Source of the DNA: a virus
Lineage: Duplodnaviria; Caudoviricetes
DNA: 36,960 bases
Virus record (IMG/VR): IMGVR_UViG_3300006810_000012
Location: 1-36,960 of that record
Strand: one strand, 5' to 3'
The notes under the pieces are model-generated. The model was given only the letters and a program-made list of their open reading frames with translations. It searched no databases and was not told the origin of the DNA. Position 1 is the stretch's first letter, and each line of letters opens with the position of its first letter. Positions 1,601 through 25,551 of this stretch are shown here, one piece after another. The position numbers and the translations under genes were made by a program.

Positions 1601-1620
1601 CTGAACGCTTGTTCAATTAA
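1597..1620. promoter_or_regulatory. Operator-like imperfect palindrome
   Basis: TTAACTGAAC-GCTT-GTTCAATTAA (one mismatch) just upstream of the predicted -35 at 1627. Confidence 0.4.
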
Positions 1621-1626
1621 AAACCG

Positions 1627-1655
1627 TTGTAGAAAATCCATCCATGCTGTAGAAG
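1627..1655 (+). promoter_or_regulatory. Putative sigma70 promoter for the structured RNA
   Basis: TTGTAG-N17-TAGAAG; the start site would fall at ~1661, at the first hairpin. Confidence 0.5.
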
Positions 1656-1734
1656 AAAAAGCGGCGGCGCGAGAAGTTAATCTCTAGCGCCGCCTTGGAT
1701 GACACGAACTTTGGACGGTTCCGTGTGTCATCGA
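1652..1734 (-). ncRNA. Putative ~80-nt antisense (counter-transcribed) RNA
   Basis: Downstream of the minus-strand promoter; two hairpins, the last GC-rich and followed by GCTTTTTCTT (intrinsic terminator-like). Confidence 0.5.
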
Positions 1735-2060
1735 CAGCAAATGTATCGCAAATGCGAATGAGTTGCAACTAGAACCTTCCTGACTTTTGGCACTTTCAAA
1801 GCAAGGTGATGTGGTTTTTGTCTTATGAACCCCAATCAATAGACTAAGAACCGGGGATATCACCCGACCCTGTGCAGATCGGTCCTAACTGGACTGCACG
1901 CGAAGTGCGATAACAAACCCACCGTCTAAGAACGGGGACCGCGTAAGCGGGGTTGGAGAAAACCCAACGGGCAGCGGCTGGCCACCGAGAAAAGGCATCG
2001 CATGGATACGGTTCTGGAGGCGTTAGGTGCTGCCTTGTATATCGGGGGCAGTAACGGGTG
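1661..2060 (+). ncRNA. Putative large structured non-coding RNA or origin element
   Basis: No ORF >=60 aa; at least 8 stems, GNRA-capped CCGC-GTAA-GCGG (1939-1950), long-range helix 1769-1776/2010-2017, G-U pairs favour the + strand. Confidence 0.6.
1740..1768 (-). promoter_or_regulatory. Putative antisense sigma70 promoter
   Basis: TTGCAA(1768-1763)-N17-TACATT(1745-1740). Confidence 0.6.
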
Positions 2061-2104
2061 TGGGCCTGTGTCTAAAGCTAAGAGACTGTAACAAAAGAAG
2101 TGAC

Positions 2105-2132
2105 TTGAACAACAAAAAAAAGCGGTTAAGCT
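2105..2132 (+). promoter_or_regulatory. Putative promoter of the second methyltransferase
   Basis: TTGAAC-N16-TAAGCT, followed by the GGAAGGAAACGAAATG leader. Confidence 0.35.
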
Positions 2133-2162
2133 ATCAACTGTAATTTAACGGAAGGAAACGAA

Positions 2163-3041
2163 ATGAATGACTTAGAAACAAACTTGTTTGGCGAGGTTAT
2201 CCATGCCGACCCAATTTTGCGGGACCGCTTTATTGAGCCGCCATTTTCAGTCTTAGACACAAAAACTGGTAGTTGGCAAAAACGCAAACAGACTTGGGTT
2301 AGCAAGGGCATTGCTAGTGAGGTCGGAAGGACGGCCACAACGTTCAATTCAGCATCAAAAGAAAATACCTTTGCCGGAAAACCAGTAACAATGAACAACA
2401 CGTCTATTTTTGATCCGGCTTTGTGTGAGGTTTTGTATCATTGGTTTTGCCCAGAAGGCGGGAGAATACTTGACCCGTTTGCGGGTGGCAGTGTGCGTGG
2501 CATTGTTGCTAACTATCTTGGTTACAAATACACAGGCATTGATATTAGGCAGGAACAGATTGACAGCAACCGCGAACAAGCGGCGGATATTCTTGCCGTG
2601 AACAATCAGCCAAACTGGTATGTTGGAGACAGCAACAAGATGCTTGACGAAATGTCAGGTGAATTTGACTTTGTTTTCAGTTGCCCTCCATATGCCGACC
2701 TTGAGGTTTATAGCGACCTTGACGGAGATATAAGCAACATGAATTATGACAAGTTCATGGCGGCATATTCCGAAATAATTGCAAAATCTTGTGGGCTTTT
2801 AAAGGCTGGCGGGTATGCTTGCTTTGTTGTTGGCGAGGTGCGCGACAAAAAAGGAAACTATATTGGATTTATTCCTGACACGATTAAGGCGTTTATGGGT
2901 TGCGGCATGGGATTTTACAACGAAGCGATATTGTTAAATCAGATAGGCACGGCCATGATGCGGGCGGGTGGAAACATGAAAACCGAAAAACTGGTAAAGG
3001 TTCACCAAAATGTTTTGGTTTTCAGGAATGGCTCGAAGTGA
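2163..3041 (+). CDS. DNA methyltransferase (N4C/N6A)
   Basis: SIFDP.LCE, SAM-binding ILDPFAGGSVRG followed by catalytic FSCPPY; more AT-rich than its neighbours. Confidence 0.88.
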   Translation: MNDLETNLFGEVIHADPILRDRFIEPPFSVLDTKTGSWQKRKQTWVSKGIASEVGRTATTFNSASKENTFAGKPVTMNNTSIFDPALCEVLYHWFCPEGGRILDPFAGGSVRGIVANYLGYKYTGIDIRQEQIDSNREQAADILAVNNQPNWYVGDSNKMLDEMSGEFDFVFSCPPYADLEVYSDLDGDISNMNYDKFMAAYSEIIAKSCGLLKAGGYACFVVGEVRDKKGNYIGFIPDTIKAFMGCGMGFYNEAILLNQIGTAMMRAGGNMKTEKLVKVHQNVLVFRNGSK

Positions 3042-3385
3042 TGCTTGAAACACCAGCGGACATTCTAAGCCACTATGCTGACGCCGACGCGGTAGACAGC
3101 TTCATAAAGTGGCGCAAGGCTATCAAAAAGCCATTAACAGAGCGGGCAGCGGTTCTAATCGCAGCCACGCTAAGAAACATCAACGCAGACAACGGGGACG
3201 CCACAGAGGCGCTAGACCTTGCACAAGAGCATGGCTGGCAGACCATCAAGGCAGACTGGTATTGGAGGATTAAAAATGGCAACGGAAATAATCAAGGCGG
3301 CAGGGCTTCCGACAGTCACGCCACAACACGCGCAATCTCTTTCGCCGCAAAAGCTGCAAGAACACCGAGCGGCGATTGCTTTTGA
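3041..3385 (+). CDS. Stand-alone C-terminal domain of a lambda-O/replisome-organiser-like initiator
   Basis: F..WRK..KKPLT..A....L......EA......GWQ pattern typical of phage initiator C-termini; ATG coupled to the MTase stop; only 114 aa. Confidence 0.6.
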   Translation: MLETPADILSHYADADAVDSFIKWRKAIKKPLTERAAVLIAATLRNINADNGDATEALDLAQEHGWQTIKADWYWRIKNGNGNNQGGRASDSHATTRAISFAAKAARTPSGDCF

Positions 3386-3713
3386 CGTTGAGGTAATTCT
3401 TGACGGGTATTGGGACAGCAGACCACCTGACCACATCAAAGCGGGTATCTTGGCGGACTGGTCCGATGCGCTGCAAGACTGGACGGGCGAGCAGGTTCTA
3501 TGGGCGCTGCGCAAGTGGCGGAACGACAACCCAAGCAAGAAGCCAAACCCCGGCCATATCTTAGCAATCTGCAAAGCCAAGCGTGGCGCACGGGTAGCGG
3601 CTGAAATGCGGCAAGAGGAAACAGCGCCAGAGCCGAAGACCAAGGTGACGAAAGAGCAGGCCGAAGCGATTTTGGCTGATGCTGGATTTTCAGTGAAAAG
3701 GATGAACCAGTGA
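3276..3713 (+). CDS. Putative helicase loader (lambda P/G39P-like)
   Basis: W.DAL.DW...QV..AL..WR......P.PG.I pattern; GGAGG RBS; follows the O-like gene. Confidence 0.5.
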   Translation: MATEIIKAAGLPTVTPQHAQSLSPQKLQEHRAAIAFDVEVILDGYWDSRPPDHIKAGILADWSDALQDWTGEQVLWALRKWRNDNPSKKPNPGHILAICKAKRGARVAAEMRQEETAPEPKTKVTKEQAEAILADAGFSVKRMNQ

Positions 3714-3755: not shown

Positions 3756-4046
3756 ATGAGTGACGCACCAAAGATCATATACGCTGCACCGCCGCACGAC
3801 GATCCGCAGTGGAAGCACGGCGCGGGTGAATGGGACGTGTCTGAAGATTGGGTGGTAGAGAATAAGATGCTGTACCACCACGACGACACAGTGCAAGAAC
3901 TGCAAGCCCGCATTGCTGAACTGACCGAGGCTTTGCAAATTATGGCAGGGGCGCGGAAAACACACGAAGCATTGGGCGGTAACTATAAGTTTATAATTGA
4001 CAGATGGATAGACGCAGCTTGTTCTGCATTGGGGGCCAAGCCATGA
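3756..4046 (+). CDS. Hypothetical protein (short coiled coil)
   Basis: GAGG RBS, 96-aa ORF coupled to the next gene. Confidence 0.7.
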   Translation: MSDAPKIIYAAPPHDDPQWKHGAGEWDVSEDWVVENKMLYHHDDTVQELQARIAELTEALQIMAGARKTHEALGGNYKFIIDRWIDAACSALGAKP

Positions 4047-4360
4047 GTGATGAAATTATAAACGCATCTGCGCGGGTTCACGGCATTAGCGTGTCTGACC
4101 TTCTAAGCGAAAGCAGAGAGCGCAAGTTCATGCCAGCGCGTCAGGCTGTAGCTGTCCTACTGGACGCTAGGGGGTTGGACGCAACGCAGATTGCGCGGAT
4201 ATTAAACCGGGCGCACAATTCGTCTGCCCGGTCGCTACTAGACGCATACTTTGCAACGGCCACCCCAGAACGCGAGGCACAAATCGATGCCGTGCGTATC
4301 GTGGCTATGGTTTCGGACCTGTCCCGCGTTGTGAAAAAAACAAACGAGACTGTCAATTAG
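4043..4360 (+). CDS. DnaA C-terminal (domain IV)-like HTH protein
   Basis: II...ARVHGISVSDLLSESRERKFMPARQ.......G...TQIARILNRAH matches the Bac_DnaA_C pattern. Confidence 0.7.
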   Translation: MSDEIINASARVHGISVSDLLSESRERKFMPARQAVAVLLDARGLDATQIARILNRAHNSSARSLLDAYFATATPEREAQIDAVRIVAMVSDLSRVVKKTNETVN

Positions 4361-23511: not shown

Positions 23512-25551
23512 ATGGAGAGAGAACCAAGACAGCGACAGCAGGCAGCAGCGGCGGCGCGTAATCCAGCGGCTAGCCAATCTGCAAGCATTTTTGACATGCC
23601 TAACGCGCAGTTTCTGGGCGCTCTTGAGGAATTGCGCGGGCAGGGTATGCCACAGGACCGCATTGACGACCTGAAACGGCAGTATCGTTCCGCGAATAGC
23701 CCGATGGCACCACTTAACGAGGCTGCGGCTACTGCACGGCAAGAGGCTGACGCAGGCGGGCGCAAGTCTGTCATGGGCGGCATGTTCACGAAAGACGCAG
23801 GGGCGACTGGAATGGACGCTGTGCGGTCTATGCAGCCTTCACTCACAGCGGGCTTGCTAGGGGCGCTGCAAGGCGGCGGTCAGGCTATCGACGCACCTAT
23901 GGCAGCGGCACAGGGGCTTATCCCACAAGGCGACATGGCACTTGAGGCGCTAGGCACTGCGGGCGCAGCTATGACGGGCGGTGGTGCTGCTGTTGCGCCA
24001 CGGGGATCTTTGCGCATGGGCTTGGCGCTAAATGAAAAGGATATGTTCCACGGCACACCTGATGTACGCGGCCTTCGCACTGCGGGCGCATTCGATCAGA
24101 TGACGGAGGGAACGCAGAGAATATCAGACCTAGACGCATGGCGCAGGCTTGGTCAGCAAATTGACGAGGTTGGGCCATCCACACCAGAGGGCATTGACTT
24201 AACTATTGCTAGGTCAAATCTGCTAGAGCAGCAAAGGGTGAATAAGCCTGTATTTGCTACGCCGGATAGACAGATGGCGGCAACCTATGCAGACGACACT
24301 AGGGCTTTTGATTATCAAAACGCAGAGCCTGCTATTGTATCCATGCGGTCAAACCCGCAGCGCATTCTGGACATAAACGCGGGCGGCGCAGACTTTCGCG
24401 GCATTGACTTGGACCGAGTAAAAAAAGGCTTTCGTGAGGCGGGCATTCCTGACGCGGACATAGAAGATGCGCTCAATAGGTACATTGTCGCTCCGCGCAG
24501 TGATGGCAAGCTGTCCACCAATGACCTTAGCGCAGTTTCGCAAAGTCTGGGTTTTGACGCTGTTGATGTGGCTAACGTCCGCGATGCTTACAATAACAAC
24601 GGCAGATCAACGCCGGGAACTGTTCGCATGGCATTCAACAGCGATCAAATAGACGTTGGCGATATGCAAATGCTTGCCAACGCCGACACCAGCGGCGGCT
24701 TACTCGCCACGGCTGCTAGTGATGCGCTAACACCTTCACAGCAAATGGCACGCCGCATTTTAGACATGCGTGCTGCTGGACGTGCAAGCGAAGTGACCGA
24801 CGACATGATGGCGCAGGCTGACCCGCAGGTGATGTTTAACGAAACGCCGCTGCCAATGGACGTTGATAGCAGGGACGCGCGTAGGCTGGCGGCTGGTTTT
24901 AATACTGGTGCTTTTCATGGCGGGCGCGGCGGGTACGACAGGCTTGACCCTGAAATGGCGGACGGAAAGACATATGACACTGGCACTTGGGCCGCTGATG
25001 ACCCTGATATTTCGGCAACTTACAATGGCAGTGTTTTTGACGGCACACAGGCCACTTACCCACTTAGATTGCGGACGCAAAACTATGGCGTGACTGATTG
25101 GGAAAATAACGCATGGGGCGACGGGAACCAGCAAGCGCGTATGCTAAACCCAAATGAACCACGGCCTCAGAAGTTTGGCGATATTTATGAAGATTGGCAA
25201 AGCTGGGCCAGCACTGACAACGCAGCGAGAGCGGCCAACGAGCAGGGCTTAGATGGTTTGCGCATAAATAACGTGGTTGATATTGGGCCTAACATCTTCT
25301 CAAGGGCGAACAAAACGCGGCCATTGCCCGAAACTGGCACAAGTTTTTCGATAACAAACCCTACCACAGCGCGTAGCGACTTCGCCCGCTTTGACCCAGA
25401 GTTTGCGCATCTAAGCAATCTAAGCGCGGCTAATGCATCGCCCACAGCAGGCGCGTTGGCATCAATAGGCGAAGATGATACAGAAGCAAGAAAACGTGAT
25501 ATAGTGCGCAAACTAATGCCTAGCGCCCAAAACATTATAAGGAGACAGTAA
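23512..25551 (+). CDS. Putative injected protein with two ADP-ribosyltransferase-like (ART-PolyVal-type) domains
   Basis: FHGT..VFATPD...A.TYA..GFDAV...NVRD and FHGG..GTWAADD...S.TY..GLDGL...NVVD..FARFDP. Confidence 0.65.
   Translation: MEREPRQRQQAAAAARNPAASQSASIFDMPNAQFLGALEELRGQGMPQDRIDDLKRQYRSANSPMAPLNEAAATARQEADAGGRKSVMGGMFTKDAGATGMDAVRSMQPSLTAGLLGALQGGGQAIDAPMAAAQGLIPQGDMALEALGTAGAAMTGGGAAVAPRGSLRMGLALNEKDMFHGTPDVRGLRTAGAFDQMTEGTQRISDLDAWRRLGQQIDEVGPSTPEGIDLTIARSNLLEQQRVNKPVFATPDRQMAATYADDTRAFDYQNAEPAIVSMRSNPQRILDINAGGADFRGIDLDRVKKGFREAGIPDADIEDALNRYIVAPRSDGKLSTNDLSAVSQSLGFDAVDVANVRDAYNNNGRSTPGTVRMAFNSDQIDVGDMQMLANADTSGGLLATAASDALTPSQQMARRILDMRAAGRASEVTDDMMAQADPQVMFNETPLPMDVDSRDARRLAAGFNTGAFHGGRGGYDRLDPEMADGKTYDTGTWAADDPDISATYNGSVFDGTQATYPLRLRTQNYGVTDWENNAWGDGNQQARMLNPNEPRPQKFGDIYEDWQSWASTDNAARAANEQGLDGLRINNVVDIGPNIFSRANKTRPLPETGTSFSITNPTTARSDFARFDPEFAHLSNLSAANASPTAGALASIGEDDTEARKRDIVRKLMPSAQNIIRRQ

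What the first reader, a model, noticed from the sequence alone, without database searches (positions are those of the whole stretch)
1601..3713. Candidate RNA-based replication system: large structured ncRNA in place of the initiator's DNA-binding domain
Seen: the longest ORF-free stretch of a very compact genome (~560 bp) lies in the replication region and is densely base-paired. Downstream, past an inserted MTase, is a 114-aa protein resembling only the C-terminal domain of lambda-O-type initiators, followed by a helicase-loader-like gene. I found no N-terminal HTH, iterons, primase, helicase or polymerase. Known: O-type initiators use an N-terminal DNA-binding domain on iterons and a C-terminal domain to recruit the loader and helicase; ColE1 initiates from a folded RNA primer/R-loop. 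Inference: the structured RNA, or its extruded ssDNA, may specify and open the origin and recruit the truncated O-like domain and loader.
Basis: partly seen in the sequence, partly recalled or inferred. Interest (0 to 1): 0.9.

Follow-up and report, generated by a model that had tools for sequence, protein, structure and literature searches.

The report
RNA origin replaces phage initiator's head
In these marine phages a conserved folded non-coding element of about 420 bases sits in the genome slot that relatives fill with the DNA-binding half of their replication initiator, and it likely works as a plasmid-style RNA primer that starts phage DNA replication, a role not yet tested.

Summary
Window 1601-2162 has no credible gene. 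It holds a conserved structured element with no Rfam match: a two-hairpin leader and a ~290-nt core whose long-range helices covary (0/500 shuffles). An antisense sigma-70 promoter sits in 42 of 45 leaders, predicting a ~79-nt RNA I-like transcript. Protein 3041-3385 is a family of stand-alone initiator C-terminal domains.

In loci collected with a neutral bait (the downstream gene), 14 of 16 headless initiators have the element upstream, against 0 of 22 full-length ones. One exception has a stand-alone HTH gene with iterons in the element's slot. The core also lies in Rhodobacteraceae satellites where no primase or helicase was found.

Best reading: a ColE1/MRB-like RNA-primed origin feeding a phage helicase-loading pair. 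Transcription and origin activity are untested. Specific recognition of the RNA by the protein is not supported, because cores and C-domain families are interchangeable.

The parts
1627..1655 (+). predicted sense sigma-70 promoter (-35, 17-nt spacer, -10 lacking the last T) for the long RNA
   Evidence: same position and mostly 17-nt spacing in 42 of 45 leaders; read from the sequence; no shuffle control
1661..1733 (+). two-hairpin leader; 5' end of the predicted long RNA
1653..1733 (-). predicted ~80-nt antisense RNA: two stem-loops and a U-rich tail (RNA I-like or oop-like)
   Evidence: fold -36 kcal/mol; predicted lengths 74-89 nt in 43 of 45 leaders
1740..1768 (-). predicted antisense sigma-70 promoter, 17-nt spacer
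   Evidence: score of 8/12 or more in 42 of 45 leaders, 2.3 expected from shuffles
1790..2077 (+). structured core, type A: long-range helices 1847-1853/2009-2015 and 1905-1910/1998-2003, conserved junction 2004-2009, candidate pseudoknot 1862-1865/2056-2059, G5 tract 2044-2048
   Evidence: alignment and covariation in 21 distinct sequences
2066..2162 (+). conserved terminal motif (2066-2077; candidate RNA-DNA switch point) followed by an A+T-rich tail
   Evidence: shared by types A and B; tail 63-67% A+T on average; its role is inferred
2163..3041 (+). DNA methyltransferase; variable cargo, not part of the module
   Evidence: Pfam/PHROG; other genes or none in this slot in relatives
3041..3385 (+). 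headless initiator: stand-alone C-terminal domain of O-like replication initiators
3276..3713 (+). putative helicase loader (G39P/lambda P-like), overlapping the initiator gene
   Evidence: 745 relatives; nearest named Atlas clusters G39P_N and lambda P at 0.92; no Pfam or PDB hit

Best explanation
The element is likely an RNA-primed replication origin, working like ColE1/MRB, that replaces the HTH-plus-iteron origin-recognition half of a lambda-O-type initiator, while the phage keeps the C-terminal half and a likely helicase loader. Inferred steps: (1) host RNA polymerase transcribes ~420 nt from 1661; (2) the folded core and the G-rich 3' end keep the RNA hybridised near 2045-2075 as an R-loop; (3) the RNA end primes DNA synthesis, or simply holds the duplex open, next to the A+T-rich tail; (4) the headless domain binds the displaced strand and, with the loader-like protein, loads the host helicase; (5) the ~80-nt antisense RNA tunes this by pairing with the leader. 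Shown here: conservation, covariation, promoter patterns and the mutually exclusive gene context. Not shown: transcription, R-loop, origin activity, protein binding.
For: Neutral-bait control: 14 of 16 headless loci carry the leader and/or core (12 with a recognised core) against 0 of 22 full-length loci; Fisher p 1e-8 before dereplication; the two kinds are intermixed on the loader tree. The same slot holds a stand-alone HTH_36 gene with three tandem repeats in L472 and a full DUF1376 initiator in L470. In L375 a DUF1376 initiator gene lies upstream, only ~100 nt of the element remain and the headless gene is broken. The core sits between integrase/AlpA/small genes and the packaging genes of Rhodobacteraceae satellites; none of their ORFs scanned is a primase or helicase. 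Covariation: 23 of 50 pairs change on both sides, 0/500 shuffles, slid controls collapse. Length and sense/antisense layout parallel MRB (RNA II ~465 nt, two-hairpin 68-nt RNA I; PMC3035462) and ColE1 (PMC5043065). The complete genome has no other initiation genes.
Against: No transcript or origin data. Folded ssDNA would covary equally (PMC5737381). The unbiased G-U versus A-C count favours the plus strand only weakly in type B (26:21 in stems, 70:9 in flanks, composition ratio 1.34) and not in type A (20:30, 48:73). The last 350 nt of seven type-B elements did not fold better than crude shuffles (z -0.9 to +1.8). An antisense promoter and hairpin also precede the protein-type module of L472 (read), and lambda's oop RNA has little role in replication (PMC3985674). 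The core persists on plasmid CP081164 and in L452, both with their own Rep genes, and in L043 beside an HTH initiator. Satellite copies lack the phage leader. Divergent elements in full-length loci would escape my profiles. Loader and ssDNA-binding roles rest on weak hits.
Confidence: 0.58

Rival explanations
1. It is the origin but acts as folded single-stranded DNA, extruded by transcription or supercoiling and recognised by host primase or restart proteins (like G4 ori or phiX174 pas; both recalled).
For: Same gene-context evidence as the best explanation; both strands fold about equally; no G-U excess in type A.
Against: Conserved sense and antisense promoters frame it. One-sided changes in helices 5, 9 and 10 are C-to-U or A-to-G wobbles on the plus strand. 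A multi-branch fold with a pseudoknot is more typical of RNA (general knowledge).
Confidence: 0.14
2. It is a regulatory leader (antiterminator, attenuator or antisense-controlled switch) for the downstream replication operon, and the origin lies elsewhere.
For: It starts at a promoter and precedes variable cargo plus the replication genes; oop-like antisense layout; in satellites it precedes the packaging genes.
Against: Does not explain why it alternates with HTH-iteron modules in the same slot, nor how a headless initiator would find an origin.
Confidence: 0.17
3. It is a selfish or catalytic RNA (ribozyme or mobile-element RNA) that targets this site.
For: Cores swap between identical flanks (L109). 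Type C cores are followed by HNH genes. Conserved junction nucleotides suggest a tertiary core.
Against: No Rfam intron or ribozyme match; no linked RT or nuclease next to types A and B; a parasite would not predict loss of the initiator's head.
Confidence: 0.08

Closest known systems
ColE1 replicon (RNA II primer, RNA I antisense)
   Same: Promoter, long folded RNA, short antisense RNA over its 5' end, and a G tract before the end. The type-B terminal motif resembles ColE1 1179-1191 (similarity by eye, not tested statistically).
   Different: No sequence or Rfam match; two rather than three antisense hairpins; lies in a phage that encodes its own initiator C-domain and loader-like gene.
MRB plasmids of Vibrionaceae (PMC3035462); PAGEV motif (PMC5737381)
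   Same: [quoted passage not shown]
   Different: No match in Rfam or in the plasmid searches; Alphaproteobacterial phages and satellites rather than plasmids; paired with replication proteins.
Non-RepA mycobacteriophage prophage origins (PMC7157519)
   Same: Phage-borne RNA-expressing region standing in for an initiator gene and exchangeable with it.
   Different: Those serve parABS plasmid-prophage maintenance and lack initiator genes; here the element sits in the lytic replication operon with half an initiator kept.
lambda O/P module with pO-oop
   Same: Gene order, homologous C-terminal domain, loader-like partner, short antisense RNA upstream.
   Different: N-terminal HTH and iterons are missing; a ~290-nt covarying core is in their place.
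ARRPOF and GEBRO motifs (PMC5737381, PMC12990946)
   Same: Large structured motifs linked to replication regions; ARRPOF has pseudoknots.
   Different: Plasmid-borne, other phyla, no Rfam match.

Membership tests
ColE1/MRB-type RNA-primed replicon | long structured RNA gene with a promoter at the origin region | tested here: met
   sequence level only: promoter pattern and covarying fold
ColE1/MRB-type RNA-primed replicon | short antisense RNA over the 5' end with own promoter and terminator | tested here: met
   predicted in 42 of 45 leaders; transcript not observed
ColE1/MRB-type RNA-primed replicon | homology to ColE1 RNA I/II or PAGEV/MRB | tested here: not met
   no Rfam hit; plasmid searches gave no ColE1 or MRB record
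ColE1/MRB-type RNA-primed replicon | no element-encoded replication protein | tested here: not met
   phages encode a headless initiator and a loader-like gene; satellites may meet it
ColE1/MRB-type RNA-primed replicon | persistent R-loop, RNase H and Pol I dependence, autonomous replication | not testable with these tools
   needs experiments
lambda O-type initiator | C-terminal helicase-loader-recruiting domain | tested here: met
   PHROG 678; matches the C-terminal part of 220-360-aa proteins
lambda O-type initiator | N-terminal winged-helix domain and iterons in the gene | tested here: not met
   absent; HTH_36 or DUF1376 in 23 of 30 full-length relatives
DnaD/DnaT-like ssDNA-binding domain | DnaD C-terminal fold | tested here: inconclusive
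   2i5u Z 4.4, rmsd 2.5, 61 aligned; 2zc2 Z 3.6; tied with unrelated helical bundles
G39P / lambda P helicase loader (3276-3713) | homology to the loader families | tested here: inconclusive
   Atlas neighbours at 0.92 with G39P_N on 34% and lambda P on 11% of members; no Pfam or PDB hit
Any catalogued Rfam family | score at the gathering threshold | tested here: not met

The most novel reading that the evidence does not exclude
A widespread hybrid replication strategy of tailed phages and their satellites, in which origin recognition has moved from protein to a family of exchangeable folded RNA modules (at least four core types, antisense-controlled) that plug into an unchanged phage helicase-loading machinery. 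An analogous module with the same terminal motif would extend to Gammaproteobacterial phages such as Stenotrophomonas phage S72.
Probability: 0.45. Interest if true: 0.93.

Novelty: new variant of a known kind. Interest (0 to 1): 0.85.

Why it matters
Many small phage and satellite genomes show no recognisable way to start replication. This supplies a concrete, testable answer and a new ~420-nt RNA family with a conserved core. It would show that the origin-binding half of a lambdoid initiator can be swapped for an RNA, linking plasmid RNA-primed replication to lytic phage replication. It could also give small protein-free origins for Rhodobacteraceae vectors. A cultured relative (Sulfitobacter phage phiGT1) carries the leader, a type C core and the headless gene.

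Tried and rejected
A hidden or recoded N-terminal domain in 1601-2162: rejected; no long frame and the conservation follows base pairing, not codons. A simple truncation or pseudogene: rejected; 89 relatives of about the same length. The DnaA-domain-IV-like gene 4043-4360 as substitute DNA binder: not specific, present in 6 of 22 full-length and 8 of 16 headless loci. Rep-less plasmids carrying the element: none found in three plasmid searches; the one real hit has its own Rep. Expression: no RNA holder listed. Foldseek against PDB gave no match at E 0.001 or better. No structure model of the loader-like protein was obtained. The generic promoter scan missed both promoters at its threshold. 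GC skew follows the coding strand and does not locate an origin. Most short-pattern hits were unrelated and were filtered by profile search. Literature: seven searches listed no paper describing this element; supplements were not read, including those of PMC5737381.

Full report
Setting. The window is a complete 36,960-bp phage genome with direct terminal repeats. Its closest cultured relative in this region is Sulfitobacter phage phiGT1. Of 47 ORFs scanned, none is a primase, helicase, polymerase or initiator N-terminal domain.

Observation. 1601-2162 has no credible gene. It folds better than shuffles on both strands (z -3.6 and -3.5), has no iteron-like repeats and no Rfam match (none either for the related elements in six other loci).

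The proteins. 3041-3385 matches only the C-terminal part of PHROG 678. It belongs to a family of 89 proteins, mostly 110-120 aa (only 62-200 aa were searched). A profile search found the same domain at the C-terminus of many 220-360-aa proteins; 23 of 30 of these that I scanned carry HTH_36 or DUF1376. The model gives only weak DnaD-C-like matches. The overlapping 145-aa gene has 745 relatives and is loader-like only as a lead.

Conservation of the element. Of 19 viral loci fetched with the protein, 14 (one identical to the window, one partial) have the element upstream. Four headless loci without it end within 590 nt or inside cargo genes, and the one full-length locus has none within 1.3 kb. 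The genes between element and initiator vary freely. All phage copies share a two-hairpin leader. The core comes in types A (window), B, C (phiGT1, L306, L493) and at least one more (L498). L109 has the same protein and the same flanks as the window but a type B core.

Structure. Types A (22 sequences) and B (27) give the same two long-range helices around a conserved junction. For A, 96.7% of cells pair and 23 of 50 pairs change on both sides; 0 of 500 shuffles reach this and slid controls fall to 35-46%. The structure was derived from these sequences and relatives share changes, so this is strong but not a formal probability. A 4-bp pseudoknot to the 3' end is kept in all 22 when read without gaps, with A-U in 16 and C-G in 6 at its outer pair. 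Against: type-B 3' regions are not unusually stable in a crude shuffle test, and G-U versus A-C counts do not settle RNA versus DNA.

Promoters. 42 of 45 distinct leaders have an antisense sigma-70 pattern at a fixed place (2.3 expected), predicting a ~79-nt two-hairpin RNA with a U tail. A sense pattern sits just before the first hairpin. This matches the layout described for MRB plasmids (PMC3035462; parts 1, 3 and 4 of the text read) and ColE1 (PMC5043065, passages). It also resembles lambda pO-oop, whose RNA matters little for replication (PMC3985674, passages), so it is not diagnostic on its own.

Neutral control. The loader-like gene fetched 53 viral loci. Seven had no assignable adjacent initiator, and six full-length and two headless loci had under 1.4 kb upstream; these 15 were dropped. 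Of the rest, 0 of 22 full-length loci and 14 of 16 headless loci carry the leader and/or core (12 with a recognised core). Judged by eye from the tree, near-duplicates reduce this to about 0 of 19 and 11 of 13, and the two kinds are intermixed on the tree. The two misses are L012, whose contig ends in cargo, and L472, which has a stand-alone HTH_36 gene with three tandem repeats in the element's slot. L470, one of the seven, has a full DUF1376 initiator in that slot. L375 shows a decayed element and a broken headless gene beside a DUF1376 initiator gene. L043 keeps the element but has a broken headless gene and an HTH initiator downstream. Elements found by DNA pattern alone often lead to a second headless family, the C-terminal domain of PHROG 270/9327 (L026, L276, L288, L306, L323, L347).

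Satellites. The type A core was found in 11 of 401 genomes of the family (two hits marginal), the headless protein in 1 of 401. Of eight regions fetched, three show small genes, the core, then terminase and capsid genes; L448 is a whole island from integrase to portal. The other five are partial islands or remnants, one with RepA nearby. None of the 28 ORFs scanned is a primase or helicase. That capsid-forming PICIs normally carry primase and origin at this place is recalled knowledge.

Wider reach. The type-B terminal motif also closes unrelated ~400-nt gene-free regions in distant phages with HTH-less initiators, one of them near-identical to Stenotrophomonas phage S72. Homology of those regions to this family is not established.

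Mechanism and verdict. The slot is the origin-recognition slot of the replication operon, and it is filled either by an HTH protein with iterons or by this element. I put about 0.72 on an origin of some kind and 0.58 on an RNA-primed or R-loop mechanism. The headless domain likely acts on opened DNA rather than reading the RNA, since cores and domain families mix freely. It works like ColE1/MRB but is not a member (no homology; proteins are kept). Phage RNA-based origins are known for mycobacterial plasmid prophages (PMC7157519, abstract and discussion read), and replication-linked structured motifs for plasmids (PMC5737381 and PMC12990946, passages). Seven literature searches listed no description of this element; supplements were not read.

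Noticed in passing
L003:3800-4660 (phiGT1), L306:4000-4900, L493, L140: Type C core: a different structured region after the same leader, followed by an HNH or other ORF; in L306 and L140 a remnant of the type-B 3' end follows that ORF, as if type C had displaced a B core.
   Followed up: partly
L292, L310, L314, L335, L294, L289/L295: Unrelated ~400-nt gene-free regions ending in the same 3' motif in distant phages, several with HTH-less initiators and a loader-like or DnaB-like gene; L292 matches Stenotrophomonas phage S72.
   Followed up: partly
L048:835-1460, L446:10313-11094, L450:10294-11165: Two small conserved genes of no known family directly upstream of the core in Rhodobacteraceae satellites; candidates for satellite replication helpers.
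   Followed up: partly
L010:3177-3242: Rfam int-alpA motif just downstream of the element; a similar stretch leads the cargo genes in many relatives but not in the window.
   Followed up: no
L472:2751-3215: Naturally split initiator: stand-alone HTH_36 gene with iterons, about 2.5 kb of cargo, then the C-terminal domain.
   Followed up: yes
window 4043-4360: Stand-alone DnaA domain IV-like HTH gene after the loader; common in these phages whatever the initiator type.
   Followed up: partly
L154:13830-14150 (plasmid CP081164): Divergent core copy upstream of a small terminase gene on a Rep-encoding plasmid; probably a satellite remnant.
   Followed up: partly
window 23512-25551: 679-aa gene among the virion genes with no PHROG match; some relatives' proteins or insert domains were not examined.
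   Followed up: no
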